Assembly: GCA_050273025.1 (NCBI GenBank)
Contig: CP158635.1
Location: 558,001 to 622,000, forward strand
DNA length: 64,000 bases
Origin: Cenococcum geophilum
Taxonomy: Eukaryota
Reading direction: 5' to 3'
The notes under the pieces are model-generated. The model was given only the letters and a program-made list of their open reading frames with translations. It searched no databases and was not told the origin of the DNA. Shown here in pieces: positions 7,466 through 53,200 of the stretch; within the stretch, counting starts at the first letter, position 1, and every line of letters starts with the position of its first letter. The translations under genes were made by a program, and so were the position numbers.

Positions 7466-7725
7466 TATTAACCTAAATTAAAGTTCCTTACTACTATTGT
7501 AATACTATCTAACGACCTAGATCGTCTATATAAACTATATCTTAGTTATCTCGTATCTTAAGCTTATATATCTTATTAAACGTCTTATTACCTATTTCTC
7601 TTAACTATAACCTACTACATAACGACGTTATTATTATTATATTTAGACTTACCTAATATATAAAAGAGAGCTTCTAAAGCCCTCTTTAATAAACAGAGTT
7701 CTTATTCCTAATCGTCCATTTAATA
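7466..7725 (+). repeat. Copia 3' LTR (more heavily RIPed)
   Basis: TATTAACC...TTTAATA equals the 5' LTR with many C>T/G>A changes. Confidence 0.95.
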
Positions 7726-16632: not shown

Positions 16633-17195
16633 CCTATCTAGTCTAATATACCTCTTATTACTAAAAGTAGATATATAGATAAGCTACTACTACTAAATAT
16701 TAGATCCTTAAGTATCTATACTAAAGTCTTAACACTATTACCGCCACTAAATTAATCTACCTAGGTGCAATATCTAAGCTAGTTATAGTTAGTAACTATA
16801 TATATATAACCCTTTTAATACCTAATAATACCGCTATATTAGTAGAGAAGGATAATAAGGTAGTAGATATGGATAGAGTAGCACAACAGCAGCTAATAGC
16901 GTTAACTTACTCTCTATCTTTAGTGTATAAATATTTTTAGTTATAACTAGCTAAAAGCGCGGAGCTTACCCTATTATTAGGGAAGGAAGATAGCACTAAA
17001 AATATAGACTAGGTTAGAGAAATAGGCGATATAAGTAAAATAGTTAAGGTATTAATAAGCGGAAGCTAGTATAGAGCCTTTAATAATAATAGTAGCAATA
17101 ATAATAATAGTGGTAATAGCGATAATAGCAATTGTATATAACCTACATTACTATTATAAAAGAGTACGACCTCTCTCACGTTAGGAAAAAAGTTA

Positions 17196-17360
17196 CCAGC
17201 ATTTAATTTTACTTTTTTGCCATTTTAGCATTTTCTAGCATTTCTAGCATTTCCTAGCATTTAGCTGCCAAATGCGGCATTTAGAATTAAGTATTAGCAT
17301 TTAGCTGCCAAATACGGCATTTATAATTAAGCATTAGCATTTAGCTACTAAGTGCTAACT
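17196..17360. repeat. Left subterminal GCATTT/AAATGC motif array of the giant TIR element
   Basis: About a dozen direct and inverted GCATTT copies, including a ~40-bp tandem unit; mirrored at 50320-50362 and echoed at 17560-17600 and 22860-22900. Confidence 0.75.
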
Positions 17361-18559
17361 ATAAGATTACTAAGCGTATATAAAAGTATAATTTTTATAA
17401 TTTTAATATTTTATATACACTTTATTAATATTACTAAGTATATAAAAAAGTATATATTTTATATTTTATATATATTTTATTAATATTAGTAAGCATAGGG
17501 GGCAGGGCGGTATTATAAAAAACTTTACTAGTATCTTAAATTAGGTTTATGCTAATTAAGCAATTTTAGTATTTAGCCGTATTTAGTTATATTTTGCGGC
17601 TATATACTACACCGCTAATAATAATACTATAATTTATAGCTAAACGCTGCCTTAATAATAAAAGTGCTATAAGCTGCAGCTTAATGCTCTCTTAGAAATA
17701 ATAATACTAAAAATATTTTAGTTAACTAAGTTTACTATATACGCTACGCTACTACCTATAAGTTACTAGAAGATATATCCCTTAGCCTATATATACGCCA
17801 CTATATAATTATAATAGGTTTTGCCATATAGCGGCTATATATAGTATTTAGAATTATCTATAGTTACATTATACTCTTATAATCGTTACTAGTATTAGAT
17901 AGTCTTAGTGTCTTCCTTTTTACCTTAGCCTGCTTTTAAGCTTAAATCGGCCTTCTCCTTATATACTAACTTATGTAGTAATAATATAAATTTAGTTAAC
18001 TTTAATATCCTCTACTTAATACTTAACTTTTAATTAGCTATAATAGTATTATAGTAAACGGGCTTAGTCTATCCTTGTTAATCTATCTAAGTAAATAGTT
18101 GCTTTACCTTTAAGAGCTTATAGCTTAGCTTAACTATAATAGTATAATTTACGCGCTATAGGTTAATAGATAGCCTAATTAATATAAAGGTACAAAGTAG
18201 GATCCACTTAGAGTTATTAGTGTTAAAGGTTTACCTAGCCTTAGCCTTCTTAATATTAGATATACTAGCTATATAGCAGAGCATTTTATCTTTACTATAT
18301 TCTTTATATAGCCTATTAAACTAATAAGCTAGTATAAGAGGTAAGTAAGTAGTAATAATAATCTTACACGCTAAACTATCCGTTTATTTTTTAATATAAA
18401 CGTAATTATAGATTTTTTTTAGCTTAAAAGAACTTTATATTCTGTTAAAAATAGCGGTTAAGTATATTAGTAAACTCCTTACTAAGCGGGTTAGTAGTCC
18501 ACTTAGTAATAATTGGGTTCTTAAGTGTGCAACTTTAAGTTTTTAGGCGTTTGTTATTG

Positions 18560-21500
18560 GACTTATTAGACTTATTAGACTTAATTATAATAGGGGCATA
18601 CTAGTCCTAGTATTGGATAACCTAGGCTACGCTTACTACCGTTTTCGCGTTAGTGTATAACTTGGCTTAGGTAAGTTTTAGTATCTTAGGTTTAGTATTT
18701 AAATTACTACTATCTTTCTCTTATATAGCTGGAAGTTCCTTATATTAGCGCCTCTACTTTATCCTTACTTAGTCCTCTATGGCTGTAATTATAGCCGCCT
18801 TAGTATTATTAGGGTCGGCCTATAATATAACTAATTTAAAATAGCTGTTCTTTAGGATAAGCTTTTACTAGTTAAACTAAAGTGTTAACTCCCCTCCATA
18901 TATCTAAAACGTTAGAATAACTATACGGAAAAATGCAGCTAGTTCGCCGAATTTCCTATCTATTATTACTCTAACTAGGTTAGTCTTCGTATCCTTATAG
19001 AGATAGTTAAATTTCTTCTTCTTTAGCTAGATGTTTTTTCTTTAAGCTTAAGCAGTACTTTAAACTCCGTTCCTTTAGCTTATTAGCTTCTTTCTACTCT
19101 GGCCCTTTTAATCCTACTATAATAAACCGCATTAGTTACATTAGGTTTCCGTTATTAGGCGTACTAAATACACCCTATATATTAGGGCTGCGATTATATA
19201 TAATGCGGTACTCCTTAATTATATCCTTAATAAACAATATTAAGACTCTACCGGTCGCGTCTAAGTGGTATTCGTCCTAGAGGATACGCCTAACCTATAT
19301 TACACTTTTTAATTTCTAATATATTCTAGGGGATTGGTTATTTAGGTATTTCTATATACTAGTTTATATAGTAATAAACCCGCGTATTAGTTATGTGGTA
19401 ATACAATTTCGCGTAGTAATTAGAAGGAATTAGGTTAAGTATTTTAGCACTAATAGTTCCGTTATATTAGGGGTAGGGCTATAATTATTCTTAAACCTAG
19501 CTTTACTTTATAGGTGTAATAAAAGAGCCTTACTAACTAGATATATATCGTTATTATTTTCCCATTATTCCTTATTAGTCTACTTAAAAGCCTTACGGAT
19601 TTGCGGCTATTTATCCTTTTTTAGTTTACTAAATATTTTAACTTTATTATAGCTAGGGGCGAGAATTGTAATCTAGGGTGGGTTATGGCGCTTTATAATC
19701 GCGCCGTTTTATAATATTATACTCGCGTTTTTTAGAAATCTTAGTAGGCCCGGGGTTAGCGTAAGGACGACTAAGTAGCCTTACTATAGGTCTATAAGGT
19801 ATAGCTTCTTAAAGTTGTCTTTATAGTAGTATATAATTGGCTGCTTTGCTACTTATAGGTATTTTATATCCAGCAGATATATCTTAGGTAAGTAGTAGGT
19901 TATATTTCTAGTAGCTTAGGCCTCTTAAATATCTATTACGTTCTAATAATAAAAATAGTTTATTAGCTATTAAGTGATTATTTATATAGTCTTGCCCGCG
20001 CTAGGTTCGTCTGTATAGATACCGCCTCCTTTAATTATCCTCTTTTATTTAAATACCTAAGCTATATATACTACTTAATATAGGCTAAATTTAAAGCCTA
20101 ATATAAGGCCCTAATTAGGGAGTTCGATTAGGGCGGTCTCGGAAAGTACTTTTAATAAAATAAGTAGGAAATACTCTAGAGTGAGTAGAAAATCCACATC
20201 TATTACGTACGCTAGTATACTATCTAAGTTATCCTTCCCGGGCTTATAGAGCTGGGCTAAGAAAGTTTGCTAGTTAAGTTCTTCCTCTACGTCTATATTT
20301 TAGTTGTTATTATTAACTAAATCCTTATCTCAGTCTCTACTCTCTATATCCTTAGAGTTAGTGTAATATAGGAACTAATTATTATATCTATTAGCACGTT
20401 ACGGCAATTTACTATCCTTTATAGTAATATTTTAAGGGATATTAATGGTTAGTAATATAGTAGTAGGGTTGTTTATTATATTATTAGGCTAGTATATACC
20501 TTTAGGTTTGGTAATAGATTATAGCAATTTACTATTATTTGCGGCAATTTCTCTAATACCGCTATTACTCGCTAATATAGGCTTATAGGTAGATAGGTTA
20601 CGTCTTCCCTTTACTAATTACCTTCTACGCATAACTGGCTTATTATTGCTGTTTTTTATAAAGATGCCTACCGCTAATTCTACTTAAGGGCGTTTCCTAC
20701 TTCTATTTAGGTTGGCTTTATAACTATTTAACTTCCTAAGCGTAGCTAGCTTACTTTTATTATCCTCTGCTAGAGTACTTATTACTAATTTTAGTTAAGG
20801 CCACTTATTATATCTACCCGATTTAGTTTTATTATTATTTAATTTCTTATATCTAATAGGCTTGCCCTTACTATTTTTATTAGAGCTATATACTACTAAT
20901 CCTAAATAACTCCGCTTCTTACCTTCTCCTAGTTTACTCTTACCGCTAGCCTTATATAGCGTTAGGACTTACTAGCTATCTTTTACGCTATATCTATTAC
21001 GTTTAGGCGCTTTAGATTCGATAGCTAGCGGTATATTATTAGTGGCAGCGACTTAGGAGTTTAAGCTAGGAGGCGAGAGTAATGCTATAAATACGGCCTC
21101 CTTTGTGCTATTTCTTGCTATTTTGCTAAGAGCTATAATAAGTATGCCCTCTAACTATATTATAAGGTTTTTATATCTTTATAGCAATATATAGATATTC
21201 TTTTTAGGCAGACCGTTAATATTAAGCTCTATATAGGCTTGCAGTTCCTCCTATAGCTTACCTAGAGCTATATATAGGTTTCCGCTTATTAGATATAAGA
21301 CTTAAACTACCCTAACTATTAACTTACCTATTAAGCCTATAGATTAGATTTTAATCTTAATATCTTTTATATTAATTACGTTGCTTGCCGCTAGGGTTAC
21401 TAGCTAAGGTAAAGGGATACTATATAGTAGGGTTATAGTAACGTCTATAGGCTATATCGCATATAACAGCTAAGGTAGCGTCGTCTTATCTTATACTTTA

Positions 21501-21900
21501 GTCTTTAGAGGTAACGTATATTTATATAGAGCATACCCACTCTTAGAGGTACTTAGTGCCCTCCTTGCGCGATTAAAATAAGTACTTCCTATAATTTTTA
21601 GGATTACCTACAGTTTCTAATCTAGTAGAGTATTAGTAAATTGTGGGAGTTACTTATAAAACTCCTTAACGTGCCCTTTTTTTATTATTATAGAGTTACT
21701 GCAATATATTACGTACTTAGGCTTAACTTTAATTATAATATCTTTAATATTCTTTTTTAGTCTATTATAGTTTTTAATGCTTATTTTAAAGCCTTAAGTA
21801 ATATCCGTATCTTTAGTTAGCTTTAGGTTCGCTTTATACTACGCGTTTAGCTTTACCTATAATTGCGTTATTATTAAATCACTTATTTAGTTAGGTATGC
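18560..21900 (-). pseudogene. RIP-degenerate ORF-like region of unknown function inside the giant element
   Basis: Long minus-strand stretches whose stops are TAA/TAG compatible with RIP; no motif recognised; limits approximate. Confidence 0.3.
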
Positions 21901-22338
21901 GTAATATTACGGTATATATTAAGTAGAAGGTAACTATTAAAGTAAAAGGGCTTTATACAGTAGCTAGCTAGCACTATACTAGTATAACTCTAGTATTAGA
22001 CGTAGTTAGAGGTTAGTTATAAGAGACGAAAGGTAGGATAAGTAAAGTTAATTAAGAAGAAATAAAGAAGTAAATCTTGTAATTACCTGCACGTGCCCGC
22101 ATAAAGATAAAATTAGCTATAGTTTGCTACTACTAGTTAGGGTAAATACGGCTAAACTTAATACTATATAGTTAAATAAGGGTATAATTATATAACTTAT
22201 AGGGACTACCCTACCTAGCCTATTTAGGGCTAGGTGGCAGTTTAATACTACTAAACTCTTATAGTTTTTAATATAAGTAATTTATTAAGTGCCTATAAAG
22301 GGGTAACTAGTTATTATAGTATAATAGAATATAAGAGG

Positions 22339-22664
22339 TTATAGGCGTTACTATATTTCTTATTATTATATAGAGTCGGTATATATGCGCGCCGCTAGAG
22401 TTAAAGGGCTGGCCTATATCTATACGTATGGGCTTTATTACTGTAAAGTGTTTGCTATATAATAGGTAGTATTTTTAGTAACTAGTAATATATTACACTT
22501 ATTATAGGCGTTACTATATTTCTTATTGTTATATAAAGTTGGTAGATATACGCGCTACTAAAGTTAAAGGGCTAGCCTACATCTATATATGCGGACTCTA
22601 TCGCTATAAAGTGCTTAATATATAATAGGTAGTACTTCTAATAGACAGCAACATATTATACTTA
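22339..22664. repeat. 163-bp tandem duplication (2 copies)
   Basis: TTATAGGCGTTACTATATTTCTTATT... at 22339 and 22502, differing mostly by transitions. Confidence 0.85.
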
Positions 22665-23319
22665 CTTTATAATCGTTAGTGTTATTATTATATTATATAG
22701 TACTTAAGGGCCTACTAGATAAGTCTATCTAAAATAATAATTATTTAGTATATAGGATTTATGTCTATATATAAACATCTAGTGCTTATTTAATATATAT
22801 CTACTATAAAAGGTAGTAGGAGGTTTTATATCTTATATTATAAGTTTATATAATTAATAGCATTTTGCGGTATTTTGCGGCATTTTAGGGCATTTTAGAA
22901 TAATAGATATATTGTATATACTAGCATCTAGCTACTTAGCAATATTAACTTATCTTACTATTTATCTATTTAGTATTCTACTATAGTATTTATTATATTA
23001 AAGTCTCTTAAATTTAATATCTTTATTTTAGATCTATTTAGAACTATATATAGTTTTATAATATTCTACTTCCCGCCTAGTACTCTAGTAAGAGATTATT
23101 TAGTTAATAATACCTTTTCTCTTACTAATTAAGGGAGGAAATGACTTATACTTTCTAGTAGTAGTAGGCTATACTTATTAGTAATATTTTAAATAGATTA
23201 CGGTGTTTAAGTTTTTGTTTACCTATAACGTAATTAGCCTGCCTATAGTAAAGTGCTTTTACTTTACTACTTACTTCTCTTTTTTTTTAACCCTTTTATA
23301 CATTTATATACTCGTATTA

Positions 23320-26300
23320 TAAACTATAAGAGTTTAATAGTGCTAGACTATTGCCTAGCCTATATTAAAAGATAGGCTAGGTAAGATAGTCCCTATAACT
23401 TATACTATACCGCGTCTTCCTCTATAAGTTGGTCTTATTATTATAGATTTACCCTTATACGCGTTTAACCTATAGAGTATATAACTATATACTTTGCCAC
23501 TAAGGCCTTACTTATACAATTTTATTAGGGCGCGCCTTATTTCCTTACCTTTACTAGTTAACCTAACTTTACTAACTACCTACCCTTACTCCTACCCTAT
23601 TAGTATCTACCTTTATAACTGGTACCTTTATAGATTTATTTAAGCTATAGAGCCTTATAATATAGTAAGTTAGCTACTTTATCTTTAGCCTTAGCTATAT
23701 AATAAAGAATCTATATTTACTAATACGTTTATATAAACCACTGCTTAGTATAGCCTACTACTAAAATAGACCTACCTACTAATTATTTTATAACTTATAA
23801 TGTTAACTACATCTATAACTATAAAAAGTTTACTAAGGGCGTTATAGTTTTTAAGATTGCCTTAACTATAGTAGTTATAGGCTCTGGTGTCTTATAAGGT
23901 AATAGTAAGGGCCCTACGCTTAATAAGTCTCTTCTTCTAAAGCTTGGCAGTCTATACCTCTTAGCTAATAACGCTCTAAAATACTATCTTTATCTATTCA
24001 CCAGCTATATATACGCTAATTATTCACTTGGGAAAGCTTCTTAACTTTATTATAGCTATAATAAGGCTAGTTATCTTAAAGCTAACTACCCTAACCCTAT
24101 ATATAATAATTATAGGGAAGCCGGTTATTTTAAGAGTAACTGTCCGAGTATAATATATAACTAATATAGTGCTATAGGCTATAAAAAGCGAGACTATCCC
24201 TAGCTATTAAGTAAGAAGAAGCGGACTTGCCTAAACTATAGCTCCCTAAATTATTAAACTATCTTCTATAGTTAGGTATATAAGAACTATAGAGTTATAG
24301 GGTATAATATTAATAATTATATAAGTAGACCTACTTTAATTCGGGTAATAAATGCCGTAACCGCTCTGGGCAAGGTAGATATACTAAGTACTACCGCTTT
24401 AAGTATAGCTACTACCTCTTTATTGCCTAAACCTCTTAATATAGCCAGCTTCTATCTAGTAGTAGATAGCCTAGTAGATAATCTAGACACCTATATAGAG
24501 GATAGCAATTCTATAATAGCCAAACCTTTAGATATACTCCAGCTTCTAAATAATAACTACTTTATAGTTTAGTTTGTTATACAAATTATTAAAGAGTATA
24601 TTACAGCATATAGCATTATATTTTAGGTGTCCTATAAGACTAGTAAAATGCCTACTTATTATTTATATAAGATAGCGTCTGTCCAATTTATAGATGTTAA
24701 TATCGCCAGCGACGTTAAAGTTAATACTACTAATGCTACTTCTCTAGTTACTTAATAACTGTTATATCTAACTACGCTTAAGTATCTTACTTATATTCTC
24801 CCGTAAGATGCTATAACCCTATAACTTTACTATATTAGGTTTGTTATCGCCTCTAATAAACTTATATTAGGTACGCGCACGTTACTTAGTAAGTACTTAT
24901 TTATTAATAGGGACTTCGGCCTATTTACGCCGTAAATCTATAAAGCTTAGGATATACTATTAAATAGTCCTATAGTTATTATCTACTTCTTTACACCAGG
25001 CACTAAATAGCTTAATAGTTATATTGTAAGCCTAAACGCAAGCCTATAATAGTAGAGTGTTAATAATCCTTTAGGTCGCTAGTGGAAGAACTATAATATA
25101 AATATTTAGCTTAGTATGTAGCTCTTAGTAGAAGACTAACTATTATATAAAATCCCCGTAAGGTATTAGTTTAATAGCGTTCTTAAGTATTTTACGGTCT
25201 AGTTTTATACCGTAGTTATAAGCCTTAAGGCCGTTAATTAAAACCCCAAGGTACTTATTATTATTTATCTTATTACCTTCCTAGGTAGTGTAGACTAAGT
25301 CTACTATGCTGCTATCTAGATGGTTAATAGTCTTACCCTTTATACTAAATTTATTATTAATATCTTATTTCTAGATAAAGATGTAAATAGCTAGGCCAGC
25401 TAGAAAGGAGTTATTATTAATACTACTTCCTTCAGCTTCGGCTATAACTACTATACTTTTATCTTTTAACTATAGGTAGGTTATAAGTTTATACTAAACC
25501 CCGTATTTGCTCTAAAGTATATCCTAAGCAGCGACGACTTTATAATAGTTAGTAACCTAAGTAAGGCCCTAATTACGGTATAGGGCATTAAATATCTTAT
25601 AACTAAGCGTGTCCCTAATGTTAGAATCTCCTAAAAGATTAATACTTTACGCTACCTGTAGTAAGGAGGCAACAGTTTCTATATTAAGCGCTAAATTACG
25701 CTATCTAATAAATTTATAGATCTTCCGCGTATTAATTACTTTAACTATAATATTACTAAGTATAGGAAGAACTTGGTTAATAATGCCCTTAAGGCTGTCT
25801 TACCGCTATTTAATAAAGAGTAAATGGGTACCTGTACTACACTTAAATATATAATAGGCGGTATTTTACTAATATAATGCCCCAGTGGTGTTAGGAAATT
25901 AACCTTTTTAACTATTTTAGTATAATACTAGTATTAACTTAGGTTGCCCTAGTAGGATCCTACTAGAATCTAGGTCCTATCGCCACTTAATTACTAACTA
26001 GATATACTAGCTAAGGCGATTAATAATGCGCTTATAGAGGACTATAAGGCACTAATTACGTAAGGCCGTCCCGCTAAATTTCCTATCGTCCTTTGCCGCT
26101 ATATGCGCTTAACGGAAACCAAGGTCTATAAGCGGGATACCGTTATATAGCAAACAGCGGTAGGTATTAATACTTATCCTAAGTATTTTAAAGAATAGGA
26201 TAACTATGCTATAATTAATAAGGACGCGTTTATACTAAATATAGCATTCCTGCTCTACTATACGTTTAAGGCTAGTAATGCCACCGGCTTTAATAAGCAG

Positions 26301-27825: not shown

Positions 27826-28559
27826 GAGGGTAGTAAGGATAGATATTATAGACTTTACTAGTAGCGAGACCCTTAAATAGGGATACTAGATAGAAGTTAA
27901 GAGCGGTAGTAGCTATAGGCCTTTAATATTTATAATTTTACTGCAGTACTAGGTAAAATACGGCATATTATAACATTATATATTACAGCTATATAAGATA
28001 AACTCTTAATAATTATAATCTCTAAAATAGATAAGCGTATTATAGTAAAGATAGCCTAATTTATAAAGCCTAGTGATCCTAGTTTCTATCACTTATAGGC
28101 TAGTAGTTAATTAATACTAATCCATAATCCAGATTTTAAGGGGTTATTTAGTTATAATTTATCGCTTTTAAATTTAAACTAAAAGTCTAGTAAAAAGAAC
28201 GCGTTCCTTCCCAATTTAATATACATCTATAGCTCTACGGGTTATATAGATATATGTAATTTAAAGCCTTTAGATTTAATCTAGAGTTTAAATAAGAAGC
28301 TTTAAGCTTTTGATTTAAACTAACGCTAAGACCTTAGTTTAGATTCTATATATAGTAAAGTTACTAACTTTTTAGTAACTTTTAGCATGTTTTTTAGAAC
28401 ATCAAAAATTTATAGCTAAAGTTAAGTTAAACTAGAATATAACTAAACGGTTGCCTTAGAATTAGATTAGAGCTTTAAATTAACTCTATTTTAAAGGCCT
28501 TATTTTAATCTAAATTTATAACTAAATGTTCCCTAAGTACTTAATTAGTTAGATTATAG

Positions 28560-39600: not shown

Positions 39601-39636
39601 AAATCTTTTATACGGCCGTTACCTACGTCCCCTCCC

Positions 39637-43836: not shown

Positions 43837-44171
43837 TCCCTTGCATTGATAGTGTACTTAGAGATGTGGCCCGTGCACGCGATCGAAGAACATCAACTTT
43901 CTTACGTCAAAAGGTTTCCACGAACCAAATTTGGGTATAGATTATGTCGCATACCTCTTTGCAAGACAGGGCTGTGTTAGCAGAAGCACGTAGATCGACT
44001 CAACACTAAAGAATGAAACTCTATATATAACATAGTACGAAAATTAACATGTTTATAGCGTTATCTACCGGTCTTAGTTATCTGGCAGAACGATCGACCG
44101 CCTGCGTATGTAGCTTCCTGATTGGTGCGCACGGAGCACAGCTCTAAGGACGCGTTTATCAATGCAAGGGA
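43837..44171. mobile_element. 335-bp MITE (Tc1/mariner-type)
   Basis: Perfect 15-bp TIR TCCCTTGCATTGATA / TATCAATGCAAGGGA extending imperfectly to ~55 bp; TA TSD at 43835-43836 and 44172-44173; no ORF. Confidence 0.9.
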
Positions 44172-45099
44172 TAGAACTTTGACGACTATATAACTTAGAC
44201 ACTTTAAGATTAAAGAATTAATATATCTATTTAGCGTATGGTTAAGGAGGTATAGCGCCGGATAGAGATTACTAACCTTATATTTAAACTAGCCCCCTTT
44301 ATAAGGGAATGCCGTAAGTAGATTAATAGAATTTAGTAAATAAACTAAAACGTTAACTAACTAAAGCCCGATAATAATTGGGTATTAAAAATGCCTTTAA
44401 GCATCTATTACAGCGTTATATACTATATTCGCTTTGGGAAAGACGCTACTAATACTAATAAGCTTAATAAGGTATTTACTTAATATACCCTATTATAAGC
44501 TAATACTAAAGCCCCCTACTATAATGCTATAATAGTGCGAGAATATAAGCGGGTAAATAATAGCCTCTATAGCAATAAAGTAGGGAGGCTTTATCTGCTA
44601 CTTATAATCCAGAATACTAGGCAATTAGATAGTAAGGGCAAATACTTAAAATACGCTAGTGCGTTAGTAGAGACCCTCTAAGTTTATAATAGTAGTAAAA
44701 TTAACGCAAGAACTAGAATACTTAGAGTATAAAGTATAAAGCTATTTAATAGTAGGACAAAACGTACGCTGGATGCCCTCTAGATATATAACATTAACTA
44801 TATCGTAAGGCCTATCTTACTTATACTAATAGATATTGACATTATAGACTGTTTCTTTATAAATAACTATGGCAATTAGGATATATATAATATTATATAT
44901 AATAAAGATTTTAAGTAAATAAATAGGGTATAGGTTAATATATATATAAGGAAATAGGCTTATACTAGGCGGTAAATAAATATAACTTAGCTAAAATAGT
45001 AGTAAGTTATAACTAGCAGCGCCAGATTATAATAAAGGGGTAGATTACTGTAACTATAATAAACTAAAATATAATACTATTATATATTACCCTCTACGC

Positions 45100-47263
45100 G
45101 CTAGCTACCCTTTATATCCTATATACTGTACTATCTACCTTAAGAGTAGGTAAATATCGCGAAGAATTAGGCTTCTATGCGGTATAGAAAAAATATTACG
45201 TAAAGTAGAACCCTATACTATAGCAAGGCAATTTAATTGCCCCGTTATAAAGCCTAATAAACAGTTAGGCCGCCCTCCTAACTTATTATTATAAGTTTAT
45301 TAAAGCTCCTTTTTATATACTTAGTAAAAAATACCTAATTTATATTATAAAAGTTAACTAGGTCGTTATTTAAAGTATATTAGATATAAGACTCTAGACT
45401 ATCTAGTATCTTTTAGGAAAGTAAGGTGTATGCAAAAGCTAAATAGTTTTACTAAACTAATATACTTATCCTTTACCTATCTCATAGAAAAGTAAATAAA
45501 GACGCTATAAGTTAAGTAGTAGCTCCTAAGATAATCTAGATCTTAAAGGGGATAATATTAGGCTCTATACCGTAACTATCTCTATTAAAAGGTAAGGCTG
45601 TTATTAATGTGCTATAGTACGACCTATTATTATTAATTTTAATAACGTTATCCTAACGGATAGTCCTATTCTTGTTAGACGAAAGCCTATAAACCCTAAG
45701 CAACCGCAAGATATCTAAAACCTATACTTAAAAGAAACGTATATATTACTTAAATAAACAACCGCTATAGGATGACTTTAGATAATATATAAAGTAGCTA
45801 CTTAGCCTAGTTAATATAAAGATATACGGTATCGCTTAGATATGTCTTATTATATAAGTAATAACAGGCTCTATGCCTAAAGAGCTCTATCTTTCTCCTT
45901 AGCTAGAACTAAATATAAGCGGTCTAAATATACTAATAAAGCAGATATAGAAAGAGGTAATTACTATTATAGAGTATTAAGTATGCTACTAGGGCTAGTA
46001 GTATATAAGGTTCGTAGTCCTTAAATTTAATAGTACTATACTAACCAATTTTCTAGCTATATAACTAGCTTAGCGTATTTTAGTATTATATAATAAATAT
46101 AGTACGCAATACCGTTGCTAGGAGCTATTACTGCCTTAAACTAGATACTAAGGCTATAGTAAAGGAAGTAGCGGAACTACTTAAGGATAACCGCTTTATG
46201 CTTAGTAGCCTAATTAGTACTCTGCCTTTTACTATACCTAACTAACTAAGGCTAGGATAGAGAAACAAGATTTAGGGCGCTAATTATTACACGTTATATT
46301 AAGCGCGTATTCTTTAATACTAGGCTAAGGTTACTTGCCCTTAATAAAAATAGTACTAATCTCTTCTCGCCTATTATAGCTAATATAATATAGCTTATAT
46401 ACGTAGCAATTTAATATACTTTTAAGGACTATAGAAGCGGAATATAAGTTATTTATAAGTTTAAAGCCAACGCTATAATTATAGGTAAATCTATAGGAAG
46501 CCTTTTACTATACTTACTAAAGCGTATTATATATAGTTGGGAGTAACTATAGAATACCTAGAAGAGCTACTAACTTAAGTATAATAAAAGGTTATGTAGG
46601 CTACTTCTATAATAAGTTAATAAAATACGGAATATAACTAGAGATAAGATACTATAGACTTAGTAGGCAATTAGTAATCTATTTAAGGATATTATAAAAG
46701 ATCTAGAGGAACTAGATCCTAAGTATAATAATAGGTTTACTTAATAACCGCATACTATAAGTATAAACACATAATATTATATTAATCGCATCGCAACGTT
46801 ATATCATAATACTTGCTATATACTATAGTACTTTACCACCATTTCCTCTATTATAATATTGCGCTATTTTAATTATTATATGCGGGCTAATAAAGATAAT
46901 ATAATAGGATAACGGTAGCCTAGTATATTTATTATAAAGAATAAACCCTAAAACCATATACAAGGTCTCCTTTTCGCAGTATACTAATAAGATAATTTTA
47001 ATGCTATATAACTATAATATTAACGCTATTTAAGCGCGCATTAAATAAATTTAAGGTAATAATAAACAGAAAACAGGAATTAATTACTATATCTTATAGT
47101 ATACTTTCGCCAGCGAGTTTAAGGTTATAGATATTACGGATAGTGCTATACTAGAGGATATAAAGGCCCGCCTATAAAGTAGAGATAGACTAGTAATACT
47201 AGAATTTGCTAATAAAGAGGATAAAAGTAAAGAAGGTAGCGGAATAAATAGGGAAAATAATAG
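45100..47263 (+). pseudogene. RIP-degenerate ORF-like region of unknown function near the right end of the giant element
   Basis: Coding-like plus-strand sequence ending in a low-complexity ~54-bp repeat that resumes at 49455; no motif recognised. Confidence 0.3.
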
Positions 47264-47934
47264 TGTCGGTATCACCCGGGGGGTACTGCAATTGCAATAA
47301 GTAGTTCTGGTTCTTGGTTTTTATTCGTGTCTTATTATCGTCTACCAAAAGAGAAAGAAAGGGGTAGTAAAGGTCGGGCTATCTATCGGGCCGTAGGCAG
47401 TCAGGTGACCTACGCTACGCCATGCGGTCCCTGCCGCATACGCTTTACGCATAATACGATTTACAACCTCTACTTATACAGATACTGGCGACATTTACAA
47501 AAAGGAAAGAAGGTAAGAAAGTATAAAGGAGAAGTATATAGGTCAACAGGTGCTCAGGGCAGTAATCGCGAATGTCTCGGGTATTGCGAATATTACGGAT
47601 ATTGCAGACGTTGCGGATATCGTTACGGATATTGCGGATATCGCTACGGATATTGCGGATATTGCGGATATCGTGAACATTCGGATATTGCGGGAGACAG
47701 GTAAGCGCGTGCAGGGTGTTACTGAGGTGTCCAAGTATCTAGGTTGTTCCTCCTCCTCCTGGGTCTGGTTGCTGTTGTCGGGTAAATTGCAATAGGGTAT
47801 GCTGTTGTCGGCCAGGTTGCCGAGGGTCGTACTGCTGCTGCTGGGCAGGCTGCTGAAAATTATACTGTTGCTAGGTAGGTTGCTAGGGTATAGATGCAAC
47901 AGGTGGTTAAGGCGTCACAGGGGTATTCGTAGAG

Positions 47935-48360
47935 GGAGCTATAACGTTTGTAGAGGGAACCGTAACGTTTGCAGAGGGAGCCGTAACATTTGTAGGCGGG
48001 GCCGTGACGTTTATAGGCGGAGCCGTGACGTTTATGGGCGGAGCTTGCGCGGACGGAGCTTGCGCGGACGGGGCTTGCGTAGGCGGAGCTTATGCGGACA
48101 GAGCTTGCGCGGGCGGAGCTTGTGTGGACGGAGCTTGCGCGGACGGAGCTTGTGCAGGCGGAGCTTGTGCAGGCGGAGCTTGTGCGGACGGGGCTTGCGT
48201 AGACGGAGCTTGCGCGGACGAGGCTTGTGTGGGCGGAGCTTGCGCGGACAGAGCTTGCGCGGGCGGAGCTTGTGTGGACGGAGCTTGCGCGGACGGAGCT
48301 TGTGTAGGCGGAGCTTGTGCAGGCGGAGCCGTAACGTTGGTAGGCGGAGCTATAACGTTT
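47935..48360. repeat. 15-bp (GCGGACGGAGCTTGC-like) and 21-bp minisatellites inside the small LTR element
   Basis: About 19 15-bp units flanked by 21-bp units; also (GCGGATATT)-like repeats at 47581-47692 and a ~90-bp duplication at 48942/49041. Confidence 0.9.
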
Positions 48361-48848
48361 ATAGGCAAGGGGAGCTCGGCCGTAGGAAGGTTATTTAAGA
48401 CAGCTGAAGCTGGGGTGGCAGACGACATCAGAGTTAATGGACGTAATTTAAGACGGCGGTTAATGACATATAAATTAAAAGGTCCTTCAGTACTAATGAA
48501 TAGTCTAATTTCTTCATCTGACCATTCCGTACGGTCGTCCTCGTGAGCGACGTCGTACAGTGCTTGTGGTACTGACTTGCTCTTTATATTAAAGACCCAT
48601 ACTCTATTACGTCGGAGTAGTTGTTTAAGTCCCTTAAGTTCAGACCTGTCGGCGTCTTTAAATGTCTGCACCGTAAAATTATCAAAGTCCTCTTGGTATA
48701 ATTCCCATAAGCTCTTATCCTTAAAGTTATACTTGGTATACTCTTTAATTTTAAAGTCAATATAGTTAGTGATATCTTCCGCAGTGGTCTCGTTGGTTAG
48801 GGTTATTCCGTTGGCCCAGTTTAGACGTTGGGTTCCTGTGTTGGACAT
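48090..48848 (-). CDS. gag-like N-terminus (252 aa) followed by a QAPPA/QAPSA repeat; stop probably RIP-derived
   Basis: ORF track MSNTGTQRLNWANGITL...YIDFKIKEY...LWELYQEDF resembles the N-termini of fungal Copia-like polyproteins from memory; the TAA at 48090-48092 sits where other repeat units have CAA. Confidence 0.65.
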   Translation of the reverse strand: MSNTGTQRLNWANGITLTNETTAEDITNYIDFKIKEYTKYNFKDKSLWELYQEDFDNFTVQTFKDADRSELKGLKQLLRRNRVWVFNIKSKSVPQALYDVAHEDDRTEWSDEEIRLFISTEGPFNLYVINRRLKLRPLTLMSSATPASAVLNNLPTAELPLPINVIAPPTNVTAPPAQAPPTQAPSAQAPSTQAPPAQALSAQAPPTQASSAQAPSTQAPSAQAPPAQAPPAQAPSAQAPSTQAPPAQALSA

Positions 48849-49971
48849 AACTGGTGTAGATTGTAGTAGAGGTAGGGGGTGCTGCTGACGCTGCTGGGTT
48901 GTAGGGTGTACTGGCGCTCAGTAAAGAGGTCGTACTGGGTATTAATTTGCGTAATGGACGCGAACCGGACGAAGCCTTGGTAGGAGCCAGTTCTTTAAGT
49001 TCCCAGGGCCTTGGTAGGAAGGGTTCTCCTTGTCAAGTGGTTAATTTGCGTGATGGACGCGAACCGAACGAAGCCTTGGTAGGAGTCGGTTCTTTGAGTT
49101 CCCAGGGCCTTGGTAGGAAGGGTTCTCCTTAGCAAACGCGACGTGATCGACGGGCCTTGGTAGGAGCGATCGCGTGTTGTCTCTCTTCGTAATAACACCG
49201 GATTCTGATCTGTGATATCACTGATCAGTGTGGGTATCACCCGGGGGGTACTGCAATTGCAATAAGTAGTTCTGGTTCTTGGTTTTTATTCGTGTCTTAT
49301 TGTCGTCTACCAAAAGAGAAAGAAAGGGGTAGTAAAGGTCGGGCTATCTATCGGGCCGTAGGCAGTCAGGTGACCTACGCTACGCCATGCGGTCCCTGCC
49401 GCATACGCTTTACGCGTAATACGATTTACAACCTCTACTTATACAGACAAATAGTAATAAAAAGGATAAGAGTAAAGAAGGCAGTGGGATAAATAGGGAA
49501 AATAATAGCAAAAATAAAGACAATTAGGGGTTTAATGGTGTAGTACTACTATTATAGCGGGACTTATATAAATATTAAACTTAAAATAGCAGGTTAACTA
49601 AAGGGCGTTATTAGGCGTATTAAGGTTATATTATACTACTATTAGGTTAAAATATATTCTTTATATAGTGTGTACTAGGCGCGTAGAATAAGTAAAGAAT
49701 ATTAACTGTATAGAATAAGTAAAGGGTACTAACTGCGTAGACTAAGTAAAGTATACTAATTACGCGGAATGGGTAAATACTACTAACTACGTAAACTAAG
49801 TAAATACTATTAAGTACGCGGGAAGAGCAACGCTTATCTATTATTTAAAGTAAGTCAGATATATAGAATGCGTAAGGGGGGTATTATATATTAATTATAT
49901 ATTAAGTATAGAGAGAGCTTAATAGAATAAAGGCACTACTTATTTGGGTAGCTATAAATACATAATTAGCT

Positions 49972-50277
49972 ACACCACGTTATTAGATATAGTAGTATAT
50001 TTACACCGCGTTATTAAATACGGTAGTATACTATATTATATTATTAGATATAGCAGTATGCTATACCGTATTATTAAATACGGTAGAATACTATACCGCG
50101 TTATTAGATTCGGTAGTATACTTATACCGCATTACTAGATACGGCAGTATGCTATACTACGTTATTAGATACAGCAGTATGCTATACTACGTTATTAGAT
50201 ACGGCAGTATACTATATCGCGTTATTAGATGCGGCAGTATGCTGCACCGCGTTATTAGATATGGCAGTATGCTGTAC
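49972..50277. repeat. 30-bp tandem repeat (~10 copies) in the right subterminal region of the giant element
   Basis: Consensus CTATACCGCGTTATTAGATACGGCAGTATG, head to tail; a second ~29-bp array lies at ~49673-49822. Confidence 0.9.
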
Positions 50278-53200
50278 CTAAGTCAATACTATACGCTATA
50301 TATTATAGTGCGTAGATTGCGCATTTGGCCGCTAAATGCCGCCAAATGCTGTAAAAATGCTGGTAAATTTTTTCCTGACGCAGATAGGAAGTCACGGTGT
50401 AGTTAGTTAGCTGGTAAAAAAGCAATTGGTAAGAAGAAAAGAAAAGAGTATATTAAAGGAAAACTATAGGTCTATTTTTTCCTAAGTAAGTTATTAAGGA
50501 CTTTAGGGCTTTAAACTAATCTATATAACTTATAAAAGGCCTAGGCTTACCTAAAGCTATACCTAATCTAGATATTAAATCTAGGGGGCTAAATTACACT
50601 ACTATATACCTCCCCTACCTAAGTTATTATCCCTTAACAACTTCTAAAACTCCTTACTCCTTATACTTCCCTATCTTTAAAATAACGGCGTAGTAGGTAA
50701 CCGTATACGCTCCTTACCCTTACTATAAACCTAAGATAGTAAATAAGGAGACTCTATTCTGGTTAAATGAGACCGCTCTTATCCGCCTGTTTAAGCAGTA
50801 TAAGAGGTATTAGACTAATAGTTTTTTTATATCTTTCTATCTACTTAATTCTATCCTATAACTCTTTAGGTAACTTTATATAACTTTAGCCTTCTGTAAT
50901 AATAGAGGGTACCTTACTTAGGTTTATTGTAATAGTTAAAGGATTAATTCTATTACTAATGTAGTAGAAGTATAAGCGGCTATTAAAGCGCTCTATTTTA
51001 GTTATGTATATAAGATAGAACACATCCTTATAGTTTTTAATAGCTCTAAAACGGTAGAAATATATCTATTTCCTAACTTCATTCCCATTACTATTAAAAA
51101 GGAGGTTATAATCTTAATGTTATGGACGCTTTAAGTACAATATTACAACTACTTGGAGAAGAGTCGGAAGAAGCTAGTTAGTTAATTTAGGCACGGTCTA
51201 GGATGGAGCCGATAGAGCTATGTAATAAGGAATAGTAACTAAGGTTATATAATATTGTACGTAGTGTACGCAGTATATAAAGGGAACGTATATATAATAC
51301 GTATAATACGTACCTTATATATAAAGGGGATTTCTTAGGAGTATGGTTGTGTATTTAAAGGACTATAGTCCCTACCTAGATAGTTCTCTCCTTTGTAGTA
51401 AATCTTAGAATATAATTAGAGTTAATCTGTTAGGCAACCACTCCACTAGTTATTATTACATTGTTAACTATTCTATACCTATATACCTAGCCTATTAACA
51501 AGTTCACCGTAGTACCTATTATAAGGCTTCGTTATATATTTACTACTAAGGTTATAGTAAAAGAAGTTAAATAATATGCCACTAAAAGCACTAGCTATAA
51601 TGCCGTTAACGGCAGCAACTATATTAAGATTAGGTAACGATACTAGTATAGTAGAAGACACTGACTTTTAGTTAGTTATCGTTAGATAACTATAGGAAAT
51701 AGTTAATTAATTAACGGACAATAATAAGATACTTAAAGAAAGGATTAGTGGGATCGGAGCAGCTAAGGTTAAGTTACCCTTAATTAAGCGATTTTTAGAA
51801 GAAAAGTTGAAACTTAAGGAATTCCTTACGTAAATGCACTTTAAGGTTATATAAGAAGGAGTTAAACTAGGAACGCCTATAGATTAAGTCACTTATATAG
51901 GATTATTCTTAACGGGAAGAGCACTTAAGTGGTTTAAATCTTACCTTATGGAAATACAAGAATATGGGATAATAACTACTAATTAAGAAGTCCGATATAT
52001 GTTCTTAAGTTAAAATAGGTTCGCGGAACGGTTAATATAGATATTTAGAGACCCAGAGGCAACTATAATAGTAGAAAGAAAGCTTTAAAACCTAGTATAG
52101 AGAACTTCAGCAATTGAGTATATAACGCAGTTTTAAATATTGGTAATATAGGTTAAATAAAACGATAAGGCGCTTATAGCACAGTATAAATAGGGACTTA
52201 AGGTAAAAGTCTAGGACGTAATTATTCTGATAGAAGATGCGGACACTCTTAGGAATTTAATTAATTAAGTAATTAAAATTAATAATAGGATTTACTAAAG
52301 AGAGTAGACTAAGAAGGGTTAGGATAGAGTTCTATAGTTATATAAGGTATAGGGCACATAACGATAAAGTTAAAGTTAAAAACTATAGTATAGCGTAGAG
52401 CTAATAGACCTAAGTAGTACTAAACAATCTAGAAAATGGAATAAGAAATTATGGAAACCTAGAGGATAAGGATTAAGTGATTAAAGGTCTAAGGAGTAGA
52501 GGCTAAACTAGGAATTATAATAGTAGAAGACGTTTAGGCGGACTCTATAGTAAGAAAAATGGGTTAAAGAAGGAGCTTACATAAATTGCGAAAAATAGGG
52601 TTATTACGTTAAAGACTATAAGAGTAGTTAGAATTACTACGTAGTAAAAGGAATAAGACTAGTAGACGATATATATATATAAAGGGATAATAATATGCTA
52701 TAAGGAACAAAGGAATGTTTAATTAAAAGTTTTACGTTTTGTTACAATAATGTATACTAAATTTATAAAGACGCTAAGTATAGCGTAAGCTATTAGCTAT
52801 AAAAGCCAAAAACTGTAGAATATAGAGGAACTAATAAACTAGATTATAGATCGGATTTTAAAGACGATAAACTTAATATAGGCGAAACATTTTATGATAA
52901 TAAGGTAATAAGAGTAGCTTACTAGAAGTATATAGACTTTAGAGATGTTATATAAGAGGTAAAGAATAATTCTACTATAGAATAAGGAATATTAGTTGGG
53001 ATTAAGACCTCACTAGATATGATATCTATCGCTTCGCGAGATATAGGAGAAGTAGGATAGTAAACCACTTCGGTACTTAATAAAGGTAAAAGGCCAAAGG
53101 CTTAAGATTCTTAAGATAAGATAAGGTAAGCTTAAAGACCTATAACAGACGATAACTAATAGAGTAGAGTAACGGCTTAGTTTAGTAATATATAAATAAG

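What the first reader, a model, noticed from the sequence alone, without database searches (positions are those of the whole stretch)
17179..50380. Giant ~19.6-kb Plavaka/CACTA-like TIR transposon carrying a multi-gene payload, with exact ends recoverable
Seen: 26-bp TIRs 33.2 kb apart, a 2-bp CA TSD and subterminal motif arrays. The empty site is verifiable inside the window, because rejoining the flanks restores an LTR homologous to the one at 42430. Removing three nested inserts leaves about 19.6 kb with a Plavaka-type transposase, a Zn-knuckle/SF1 helicase gene and about three more ORF-like regions. Known: CACTA/CMC elements have C-starting TIRs, 2-3 bp TSDs and subterminal repeats. Inference: a large cargo-bearing cut-and-paste family distinct from Starships; I do not know a described family with this layout.
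Basis: partly seen in the sequence, partly recalled or inferred. Interest (0 to 1): 0.85.

Follow-up and report, generated by a model that had tools for sequence, protein, structure and literature searches.

The report
Dead giant helicase-carrying Plavaka transposon
This is a mutation-killed copy of a very large (about 19.6 kb) cut-and-paste jumping gene of the Plavaka group that carries a helicase gene beside its transposase and belongs to a family with well over a hundred insertions in related fungal DNA.

Summary

- **Ends.** 26-bp inverted ends (24 of 26 bases pair) at 17179 and 50380 occur only as this pair in the window (0 of 100 shuffles). They are flanked by CA/CA, and rejoining the flanks restores an LTR start seen three more times in the window.
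- **Later insertions.** Three inserts, each with its own target duplication, are absent from 8 of 8 spanning copies in metagenome contigs. They are 31594-42671, 43838-44170 and 47264-49449. About 19.59 kb remains.
- **Genes.** The element encodes a Plavaka transposase (PF18759, above Pfam's cut-off). It also encodes a roughly 1300-aa protein with three CCHC knuckles and an SF1 helicase, shown through homologues (E down to 7e-101). A DUF6532 region is present too.
- **Family.** The exact end sequence occurs at 130 distinct sites in metagenome contigs. TA flanks 84 of the 130. Other copies are collinear over the whole unit, and 1.4-3.8 kb deletion derivatives exist.
- **State.** All copies carry RIP-type C-to-T decay.
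- **Unresolved.** The left 6.5 kb and a 2.6-kb spacer have no recognisable gene.
- **Novelty.** Plavaka elements with 2-bp duplications are in print, and so are giant Plavaka with accessory genes in red algae. I found no published SF1-helicase companion. This scan has already noted similar elements in other genomes.

Verdict: a new variant of a known kind.

The parts
17177..17178 (.). left copy of the 2-bp target site duplication (CA)
   Evidence: The unoccupied LTR homologues hold a single CA (TA in one copy) at this place.
17179..17204 (+). left 26-bp terminal inverted repeat, CGTTAGGAAAAAAGTTACCAGCATTT
   Evidence: The same sequence class is found at 130 distinct metagenome sites.
17205..17374 (+). 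left subterminal array of GCATTT-type motifs, including a 40-bp unit repeated 2.3 times at 17255-17346
   Evidence: 9 GCATTT in the first 200 bp against 0.5 per kb overall. Its role as a binding site is inferred.
17375..23774 (.). left 6.4 kb conserved in the family, gene content unresolved; it includes inverted arms at 22191-22304 and 23290-23404 and a 163-bp tandem at 22339-22664
   Evidence: Collinear at 84-87% identity in L007, L062, L022, L054 and L077. No Pfam hit and no homologue for one minus-strand frame. T-rich on the + strand, so any gene here may lie on the minus strand (inference).
23775..27695 (+). RIP-broken gene for a protein of about 1300 aa with a triple CCHC zinc knuckle and an SF1 (Upf1-like, AAA_11/AAA_12) helicase
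   Evidence: phmmer gave 96 hits, best 6.9e-101. Pfam of 14 hits: zf-CCHC in 11, AAA_12 in 10, AAA_11 in 9. tblastn places P0002 aa 66-1267 on 24060-27695 in one frame, E 2.5e-79.
24045..24200 (+). three CX2CX4HX4C zinc knuckles, with most Cys and His codons turned into TAT/TAC (Tyr) by TG>TA and CA>TA changes
   Evidence: Codon listing. The less decayed copy L062 keeps several of the Cys.
25878..25907 (+). decayed Walker A loop of the helicase (reads CPSGVRKLTF here)
   Evidence: The copy L007 reads GPSGVGKST at the same place.
27696..30300 (.). spacer between helicase and transposase, conserved in the family, no recognisable domain
   Evidence: Collinear in L009, L010, L056, L066, L008 and L043, with a 424-bp versus 575-bp replacement at 28154-28578 in four of them. 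No Pfam hit. The right boundary is approximate.
30301..31593 (+). Plavaka transposase, N-terminal part; the Pfam match lies at about 31136-31478 (profile positions 44-162 of 325)
   Evidence: PF18759, E 9.7e-9, 35.3 bits against a cut-off of 26.3. The same stretch in L010 gives E 3.1e-23, 82.9 bits. The start of the gene is approximate.
31594..42671 (+). nested later insertion: LTR-internal-LTR-internal-LTR array of a non-autonomous LTR element (245-bp LTRs, units of 5.4 kb), flanked by AATAA
   Evidence: Absent from 8 of 8 spanning copies. No Pfam hit in six frames of the first unit, 31593-37102.
42672..43837 (+). Plavaka transposase, continuation (second Asp region ADYK.Q and the CxxC motif)
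   Evidence: The translation reads LLLAIFIADYKVQ. In L010 the matching stretch hits PF18759 positions 195-322, E 2.9e-9.
43838..44170 (.). nested later insertion: 333-bp MITE with 14-bp inverted ends CCCTTGCATTGATA and a TA duplication
   Evidence: Absent from 8 of 8 spanning copies.
44171..47263 (+). right-arm body of the element with a DUF6532-like stretch at about 46253-46475
   Evidence: PF20149, E 0.0027, 18.1 bits, below the cut-off of 24 in the window. It scores 35.2 bits, E 1.5e-8, in copy L010. Collinear in 8 copies.
47264..49449 (.). nested later insertion: un-RIPed 2.19-kb LTR-like element (221-bp repeats 98.6% alike), TSD AATAG
   Evidence: Absent from 8 of 8 spanning copies. Both TSD copies show the RIP-derived form of the target, so it came in after RIP.
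49455..50354 (+). right subterminal region with 27-bp (49682-49818) and 30-bp (49970-50278) arrays and GCATTT-type motifs next to the TIR
   Evidence: Aligned to other copies at 78-87%.
50355..50380 (-). right 26-bp terminal inverted repeat (reverse complement CGTCAGGAAAAAATTTACCAGCATTT)
50381..50382 (.). right copy of the 2-bp target site duplication (CA)

Best explanation
**What it is.** The window holds one full-length copy of a high-copy Plavaka-lineage DNA transposon (CMC/CMCT clade, DDE transposase), killed by repeat-induced point mutation.

**Structure.** The unit is about 19.6 kb.
- Its ends are 26-bp inverted repeats, 5'-CGTCAGGAAAAAATTTACCAGCATTT.
- GCATTT motif arrays lie just inside both ends.
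- Reading left to right on one strand it carries a triple-CCHC SF1 helicase gene, the Plavaka transposase, and a DUF6532-containing region.
- About 9 kb more is family-conserved sequence of unknown content.

**How it moved.** It moved by cut and paste and duplicated 2 bp of target, usually TA. Here the target was CA, 26 bp into the LTR of a non-autonomous LTR element.

**What happened afterwards.**
- An LTR-element array landed in the transposase gene.
- A 333-bp MITE landed further on.
- After RIP, a small LTR-like element landed in the right arm.

**Deletion derivatives.** Derivatives of 1.4-3.8 kb keep both ends and were presumably moved in trans.

**Shown here:** the ends, the duplication, the empty site, family size, collinearity, the identity of the transposase and helicase, the nesting order, and the RIP decay.

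**Inferred:**
- The transposase, or a companion protein, binds the GCATTT arrays.
- The helicase is a working companion, helping DNA-end processing or countering RNA-based silencing, rather than inert baggage.
For: **Ends and empty site:**

**Family.**
- They give 130 unique ends, all with distinct 12-bp flanks.
- TA flanks 84 of the 130, against a TA frequency of 0.152 in the loci (binomial p 5e-37).

**Facing end pairs**.
- TA/TA in 5 pairs: L015, L039, L093-094, L104-105, L108-109.
- CA/CA in L063.
- Discordant in 1 pair (L026).

**Collinearity**.
- L007 matches 17179-27026 in one 83.6% alignment.
- L062 matches 17733-27653 and L022 matches 17178-24341.
- L009, L010, L056, L066, L008, L053 and L036 run from 26.8-30.5 kb to the right TIR.
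- All seven skip the three inserts.

**Genes.**
- Transposase: PF18759 at 35.3 bits in the window. In L010 it scores 82.9 and 37.0 bits. The nearest long protein is a Paxillus PF18759 protein.
- Helicase. Helicase hits occur only in same-family loci.
- DUF6532.

**RIP.** TA/AT is 1.73 and (CA+TG)/(AC+GT) is 0.34 in the left arm. There are 25 stops in 533 codons of the helicase frame.
Against: - No single other locus spans both TIRs of a long copy, because loci were capped at 10 kb from the match. The full-length unit outside the window is therefore a composite of overlapping copies.
- Pfam does not see the helicase directly in the window, L007 or L062.
- About 9 kb of the unit has no identified gene.
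- The termini (CGT..ACG) differ from those printed for PlavakaA, PlavakaB and truffle Plavaka.
- No copy seen is free of RIP, so activity and any role of the helicase are untested.
- TA/TA pairs are weak proof of duplication, because TA is palindromic and frequent. The 2-bp duplication rests mainly on the window's empty site and on L063.
Confidence: 0.85

Rival explanations
1. The helicase is not a working part of the transposon. A helicase gene, from the host or from another mobile element, was trapped once in an ancestor of this family and has been carried along passively since.
For: - The intact homologues are only 22-29% identical to the window's gene, and their genomic context could not be fetched.
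- Published fungal Plavaka families are described with a TET/JBP gene or none (PMC12730594, passages).
- Ten ends share the same TIR but have other subterminal sequence, and none of those loci gives a helicase hit.
Against: - Every copy that reaches the region has the gene in the same place: L007, L062, L022 (start only), L043, L009, L010 and L056.
- Helicase-bearing cut-and-paste lineages exist elsewhere, namely AcademH and KolobokH (PMC10799480, passages).
- Earlier notes of this scan report helicase companions of Plavaka in other genomes. These are unchecked leads.
Confidence: 0.25
2. The 33-kb interval is not one element. Two short non-autonomous copies, or two ends of different copies, happen to bracket unrelated repeats.
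For: Short derivatives of 1.4-3.8 kb are common, and self-nesting of the family occurs (L062, L043).
Against: - Identical CA on both sides and exact restoration of the LTR.
- After removal of three inserts that have their own TSDs, the interior is collinear with other copies from TIR to TIR.
Confidence: 0.03
3. The family is already catalogued end to end, for instance as an EnSpm or Plavaka entry of a repeat library for this fungus or a close relative, helicase included. Nothing would then be new.
For: - The family is abundant in public data.
- Curated libraries and the supplements of PMC12730594 could not be read.
- The scan itself has met similar elements.
Against: Full-text searches found no paper that describes an SF1 or CCHC helicase in Plavaka. 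This rests on listings and the passages read.
Confidence: 0.2

Closest known systems
Plavaka DNA transposons of fungi: PlavakaA and PlavakaB of Agaricomycotina (Kojima 2025, PMC12730594), truffle Plavaka (PMC12581995), Marasmius (PMC8290104)
   Same: - PF18759 transposase.
- 2-bp target duplication. PlavakaA makes 2 bp, PlavakaB makes 2-3 bp, and truffle Plavaka makes 2 bp.
- Terminal inverted repeats.
- Extra genes occur in some families.
   Different: - Termini are 5'-CGTCAGG..CCTGACG-3'. The printed ones are TGT..ACA, CATCA..TGATG and CATAC.
- Strong TA target preference.
- A CCHC-SF1 helicase companion instead of TET/JBP.
- Size of about 19.6 kb.
- The host shows RIP.
Giant Plavaka elements of red algae (Bostrychia, Chondrus; bioRxiv 10.1101/2025.02.11.637652, passages read)
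   Same: - 17.4-19.1 kb Plavaka units.
- A fixed set of accessory genes.
- Tandem repeat arrays.
- Very high copy number, with most copies degenerate.
   Different: - Their accessory genes are PAG1-3: an unknown gene, an N6-adenine methylase/SET protein, and a ParB-like/2OG oxygenase protein.
- None of these is a helicase.
- The kingdom is different.
AcademH and KolobokH, helicase-encoding cut-and-paste transposons (cited in PMC10799480, passages read; Kojima 2020 not read)
   Same: A DDE transposon that carries a helicase as a second enzyme.
   Different: - Those helicases are SF2 (DEAD/Helicase_C). This one is SF1 (AAA_11/AAA_12) with CCHC knuckles.
- The transposase superfamilies differ.
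- The TSD lengths differ (recalled, not checked).
ESTA, EnSpm-like transposons with TA duplications (PMC12730594, passages read)
   Same: Same CMCT clade, with a TA dinucleotide at the insertion site.
   Different: - ESTA transposases were recognised through similarity to RAG1/Transib and are set apart from Plavaka in that paper.
- Here PF18759 is matched, and non-TA duplications occur (CA/CA).
Starships
   Same: Large size for a fungal mobile element, with extra genes carried along.
   Different: - Starships use a tyrosine recombinase (recalled).
- Pfam found none in six frames over 17179-31601 and 42700-50402.
- A DDE transposase, 26-bp TIRs and a 2-bp TSD are present instead.

Membership tests
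Plavaka (autonomous elements defined by pfam18759, PMC8290104) | Transposase matching PF18759 above the gathering score | tested here: met
   Window: 35.3 bits against a cut-off of 26.3, E 9.7e-9. Copy L010: 82.9 bits (profile 43-162) and 37.0 bits (profile 195-322).
Plavaka | 2-bp (PlavakaA, truffle) or 2-3 bp (PlavakaB) target site duplication | tested here: met
   The empty site in the window shows one CA duplicated. L063 has CA/CA. Five further pairs are TA/TA and one pair is discordant.
Plavaka | Printed termini: 5'-TGT..ACA-3' (PlavakaA), 5'-CATCA..TGATG-3' (PlavakaB), 5'-CATAC (truffle) | tested here: not met
   All 130 ends start 5'-CGT(C/T)AGG. The first base differs from PlavakaA.
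Plavaka / CMCT clade | [quoted passage not shown] | tested here: inconclusive
   L010 reads ...MADYKEQ...KCLICY.... A CxxC is therefore present, but the His motif could not be placed in the decayed sequence.
Plavaka | Phylogenetic placement of the DDE domain within PlavakaA or PlavakaB | not tested
   The reference sequences are in supplements that are closed. Only a Paxillus PF18759 protein was retrieved, and it aligns over about 90-110 residues.
CACTA/EnSpm in the strict sense | Termini CACTA or CAC..GTG and a 3-bp TSD | tested here: not met
   Termini are CGT..ACG and the TSD is 2 bp. No other transposase family appeared at E<=0.01.
ESTA | TA target duplication | tested here: inconclusive
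   TA flanks 84 of 130 ends, but CA/CA duplications occur in the window and in L063.
ESTA | Transposase recognised by similarity to RAG1/Transib rather than to Plavaka | not tested
   No profile-profile search against RAG1 was run. PF18759 is matched instead.
Starship | Tyrosine recombinase 'captain' gene at one end (recalled) | tested here: not met
   Six-frame Pfam scans of 17179-31601 and 42700-50402 returned only Plavaka and a weak DUF6532 match.
SF1 Upf1-like helicases with CCHC knuckles | AAA_11 and AAA_12 helicase core plus zf-CCHC | tested here: met
   Met through homologues. Of 14 phmmer hits scanned, 11 have zf-CCHC, 10 have AAA_12 and 9 have AAA_11. Three decayed knuckles and a Walker A are read in the DNA. 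Direct Pfam on the window finds nothing.
AcademH / KolobokH | SF2 helicase (DEAD, Helicase_C) beside an Academ or Kolobok transposase | tested here: not met
   The helicase homologues carry SF1 domains only, and the transposase is PF18759.

The most novel reading that the evidence does not exclude
The CCHC-SF1 helicase is an obligate second enzyme of a distinct and old helicase-bearing branch of Plavaka. This 'Plavaka-H' would be the CMC counterpart of AcademH and KolobokH. It would be spread through ascomycetes and perhaps beyond, which would explain the many orphan CCHC-AAA_11/AAA_12 genes in fungal (and possibly nematode) genomes. The helicase would act either in processing the transposon ends or in blunting RNA-based silencing of these very large elements.
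Probability: 0.3. Interest if true: 0.7.

Novelty: new variant of a known kind. Interest (0 to 1): 0.5.

Why it matters
- **Size.** Cut-and-paste transposons of fungi are usually a few kilobases. A 19.6-kb DDE element with a fixed multi-gene set and well over a hundred insertions shows that large gene-carrying mobile DNA in ascomycetes is not limited to Starships.
- **Exact boundaries.** The clean ends, the in-window empty site and the nesting order give boundaries that repeat annotators can use. One paper reports Plavaka consensus sequences mislabelled as LTR/Pao by automatic annotation (PMC12581995, passage read).
- **The helicase.** If the helicase proves to be a working companion, it adds a third, independent case of a DDE transposon recruiting a helicase. 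It would also give a handle on how very long elements are excised.

Tried and rejected
**Data that could not be reached**
- No whole genome is held for the window.
Copy depth and empty alleles in the sequencing runs were therefore not examined.
- The look-up of sequencing runs listed 20 rows from 11 studies holding at most 0.48 of the words.
- The genome search cannot read the metagenome records. The far ends of the long copies L007, L054 and L077 could not be fetched.
- The search for related loci with a 7-sequence helicase alignment failed for lack of a conserved stretch.

**Searches that found nothing**
- Direct Pfam scans with stops read as X found no helicase domain in the window, L007 or L062. 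The same method does detect RT, RNase H and integrase in the equally decayed neighbour at 50383-60100.
- One minus-strand frame of the left region found no homologue among proteins of 281-896 aa.
- P0002 in the word-indexed search found only itself.
- P0098 aligns only about 90-110 residues with six family copies in the loci and gives no hit in the window.
- The search of earlier findings by place and by sequence gave nothing.

**Methods that did not discriminate**
- Stop-codon density per frame does not mark coding frames here.
- A C/G-favouring consensus of six left-arm copies, kept inside the script, reached only 43% GC and restored no long frame.

**Leads only**
- The protein atlas listed CCHC/AAA_11/AAA_12 clusters, commonest in Ascomycota and Nematoda.

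**Considered and rejected**
- A Gag-type origin of the knuckles. The knuckles are in frame with the helicase in P0002 and in the window.

Full report
**Setting.** The interval lies in an AT-rich block of 26-33% GC, with two richer islands at 31-43 kb and 47-49 kb. The left arm has TA/AT = 1.73 and (CA+TG)/(AC+GT) = 0.34. This is the signature of repeat-induced point mutation (RIP), a fungal defence known from Pezizomycotina (named so in PMC5751038, passage read). Open frames are almost absent. Only six stop-to-stop frames of 70 aa or more overlap 17179-31600.

**The ends.** The left end reads CGTTAGGAAAAAAGTTACCAGCATTT at 17179-17204. The reverse complement of 50355-50380 reads CGTCAGGAAAAAATTTACCAGCATTT. 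They agree at 24 of 26 bases, and one of the two differences is a C-to-T at CpA.
- A search allowing three mismatches finds these two sites only. None of 100 shuffles gave a match.
- CA precedes the left end and follows the right end.
- The flanks joined with a single CA read GAGTACGACCTCTCTCAGATAGGAAGTCACGGTG. This is a RIP-worn version of the LTR start found at 31594, 37023 and 42430, GGGTACGACCACTCT(C/T)AGATAGGAAAGTCACAGTG.
- The insertion therefore went 26 bp into an LTR and duplicated 2 bp.
- GCATTT-type motifs are packed inside both ends: 9 and 3 in the terminal 200 bp, against 0.5 per kb overall. Tandem arrays of 40, 27 and 30 bp follow them.

- These give 130 unique ends, and every one has a different 12-bp outer flank.
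- The inner sequence sorts them into 36 'left' ends, 84 'right' ends and 10 with other subterminal sequence.
- The two bases outside the end are TA in 84 of 130. The rest are AA 11, TT 10, CA 5, AT 4, TG 4 and eight others. TA has a frequency of 0.152 in the loci, giving p of about 5e-37.
- Seven facing left-right pairs lie 1.4-3.8 kb apart. Five have TA/TA, one (L063) has CA/CA and one (L026) has AA against TA.
- TA/TA is weak proof of duplication, because TA is palindromic and common. The 2-bp duplication rests on the window's empty site and on L063.

**Collinear copies and the three inserts.** BLAST of the window against the loci gives the following.
- L007 matches 17179-27026 in a single 10-kb alignment at 83.6%.
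- L062 matches 17733-27653, L022 matches 17178-24341, L054 runs to 22691 and L077 runs to 19896.
- From the other side, L009, L010, L056, L066, L008, L053 and L036 run from 26.8-30.5 kb to 31595. They then continue directly at 42672-43837, 44171-4726x and 4945x-50380.
- L043 does the same for the first two joints and L005 for the third.
- Each of the three intervals is therefore missing from 8 of 8 copies that span it.

The junctions show a separate target duplication for each insert.
- **31594-42671, TSD AATAA.** This is an LTR-internal-LTR-internal-LTR array with 245-bp LTRs. No Pfam domain was found in six frames of its first unit, 31593-37102.
- **43838-44170, TA TSD.** This is a 333-bp MITE with 14-bp inverted ends.
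- **47264-49449, TSD AATAG.** This is a 2.19-kb LTR-like element whose 221-bp repeats are 98.6% alike. Both of its AATAG copies carry the RIP-derived form of a target that reads AACGG in copy L009 (AACAG in L010), and the element itself has about 52% GC. It arrived after RIP.

Removing the three inserts and their duplications leaves about 19.59 kb.

No single outside locus holds both ends of a long copy, because loci stop 10 kb from the match. However, left-arm and right-arm copies overlap at 25.6-27.7 kb. One contig (L121 and L043) also has a right end followed by transposase and helicase sequence down to 25574. Among ends with at least 2.5 kb of interior, 4 of 10 left ends and 8 of 23 right ends belong to the long form.

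**Transposase.**
- With stops read as X, the + strand at about 31136-31478 matches PF18759 (Plavaka), positions 44-162 of 325. The score is E 9.7e-9, 35.3 bits, against a cut-off of 26.3.
- Right after the nested array the frame reads ...LLLAIFIADYKVQ....
- In the less decayed copy L010 the two halves score 82.9 bits (positions 43-162) and 37.0 bits (positions 195-322). They lie in two different frames, about 130 bp apart. An intron or a family-wide frameshift lies where the window's copy took the LTR array.
- L010 shows ILASDKT, MADYKEQ and a CxxC.
- The only long protein retrieved with this part is a Paxillus protein with PF18759 and PF20722.
- A DUF6532 match about 2.8 kb downstream is below the cut-off in the window (18.1 bits). 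It is above the cut-off in L010 (35.2 bits against 24).

**Helicase.**
- Pfam sees nothing at 23.3-28.4 kb even at E<=10.
- The codons at 24045-24200 nevertheless spell three CX2CX4HX4C knuckles. Their Cys and His codons have become TAT/TAC, as TG>TA and CA>TA changes predict.
- A phmmer search of 24000-27599 (stops as X) against 1.84 billion representatives gave 96 proteins at E<=1e-3, 57 at E<=1e-10 and 12 at E<=1e-30. The best are 6.9e-101 (P0001, 1554 aa) and 5.4e-93 (P0002, aligned over query residues 190-1200).
- Fourteen hits were scanned with Pfam. Eleven have zf-CCHC, ten have AAA_12 and nine have AAA_11.
- tblastn lays P0002 residues 66-1267 on 24060-27695 in one frame, E 2.5e-79.
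- Copy L007 keeps a Walker A GPSGVGKST where the window reads CPSGVRKLT.
- Many of the 96 hits are short pieces at 60-87% identity, which are likely gene calls on other decayed copies.
- P0001 is a hypothetical protein of a Kalmusia species. Several others come from metagenome contigs of 18-30 kb.
- In the fetched loci, helicase matches occur only in copies of this family.

**What stays unknown.** Two family-conserved stretches have no Pfam match in any copy scanned: 17375-23774 and about 27696-30300. One likely minus-strand frame found no homologue. The same method detects RVT_1 (4e-15), RT_RNaseH (3e-19) and an integrase zinc domain in the equally decayed Ty3/Gypsy element next door. A common domain in the left arm would therefore probably have shown.

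**Mechanism.**
- *Shown:* a DDE Plavaka element with 26-bp TIRs, a 2-bp duplication with TA preference, many independent insertions, internal-deletion derivatives, and death by RIP.
- *Inferred:* the GCATTT arrays are protein-binding sites, as subterminal repeats are in CACTA elements (recalled). The helicase is a working companion.
- The helicase's constancy in every copy that reaches the region favours a working role, but nothing here tests it.

**Comparison with print.**
- Kojima 2025 (PMC12730594; abstract, outline, twelve passages and section 3.3 read) describes PlavakaA with 2-bp TSDs and termini TGT..ACA. It describes PlavakaB with 2-3 bp TSDs and termini CATCA..TGATG, and ESTA with TA TSDs. 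It places all of them in a CMCT clade that makes 2-5 bp duplications. The families were reconstructed from Agaricomycotina, with TET/JBP as the only extra gene mentioned in what I read.
- The truffle paper (PMC12581995, one passage) reports Plavaka with 2-bp TSDs and CATAC ends in an ascomycete.
- PMC8290104 (passages) defines autonomous Plavaka by pfam18759.
- The Bostrychia preprint (passages) describes 17.4-19.1 kb Plavaka with three accessory genes in red algae.
- PMC10799480 (passages) names AcademH and KolobokH as helicase-bearing DNA transposons with DEAD/Helicase_C domains.
- Five full-text searches were run: 9 papers; 20 papers. In their listings and in the passages read I found no description of an SF1 or CCHC helicase inside Plavaka.
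- Supplements, which may list the proteins of each family, were closed. Repbase and Dfam could not be consulted.
- Iyer et al. 2014 and Kojima 2020 are cited from reference lists only.

**Earlier notes of this scan.** They report giant Plavaka copies with helicase-type companions in other fungal genomes. They are unchecked, I did not test them, and no look-alike of this window's helicase DNA was on record.

**Verdict.** The element is a new variant of a known kind. It is a Plavaka lineage with its own termini, a TA preference, unusual size and an SF1 helicase companion, and it is preserved here as a RIP-killed but fully delimitable copy.

Noticed in passing
window 47264-49449: An un-RIPed (about 52% GC) 2.19-kb LTR-like element sits inside the RIPed transposon. 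It holds an intact 275-aa minus-strand frame (48090-48917) whose C-terminal half is a Pro/Ala/Gln-rich 15-bp tandem repeat. The only Pfam match is a weak Extensin_1 hit far below the cut-off. A 75-86% relative lies in locus L037.
   Followed up: partly
window 43838-44170: A 333-bp GC-rich MITE with 14-bp inverted ends CCCTTGCATTGATA and a TA duplication, without obvious RIP-type decay (by eye).
   Followed up: partly
window 31594-42671 and 17153-17178 with 50383 to about 51114: The nested array and the host of the transposon belong to the same LTR family (245-bp LTRs). The nested copy is a tandem LTR-int-LTR-int-LTR, and the six-frame scan of its first unit (31593-37102) found no recognisable protein domain.
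   Followed up: partly
window 51115-60034: A RIPed Ty3/Gypsy retrotransposon on the + strand with RVT_1, RT_RNaseH, Integrase_H2C2 and SH3_Tf2-1, bounded by 415-bp repeats 91.6% alike. Between 12 and 27 of the TIR-selected metagenome loci also hold this family across most of 51-60 kb. Whether that reflects sheer abundance or a target preference was not examined.
   Followed up: partly
window 61023-61095 and 63385-63457: 73-nt inverted repeats, 95% complementary and 2.3 kb apart, suggest another small TIR element.
   Followed up: no
window 2403-2655 and 7471-7723: 253-bp direct repeats, 86% alike and 5.1 kb apart, are possibly the LTRs of a further retroelement.
   Followed up: no
loci L062 and L043: The family nests in itself. 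An end of one copy interrupts the left arm of another, at window-equivalent 17733 in L062 and 25574 in L043. L043 also has solo LTRs of the window's LTR family at other places in the element.
   Followed up: partly
loci L012, L083, L102; L032, L055, L059, L106; L013, L030, L118: Ten ends share the identical 26-bp TIR but have different subterminal sequence. Several subfamilies, or unrelated internal sequences, therefore use the same ends. No helicase match was found in any of these loci.
   Followed up: partly
locus L010 4824-4952, equal to window 31478-31593 with 42672-42690: The two halves of the Plavaka domain lie in different frames in an uninterrupted copy. This points to an intron or an old frameshift exactly where the window's copy took the LTR array.
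   Followed up: no
window 22191-23404: Inverted arms of about 114 bp (75% alike) enclose a 163-bp tandem repeat. The structure is present in the other long copies too, so it is part of the family and not a private insert.
   Followed up: partly
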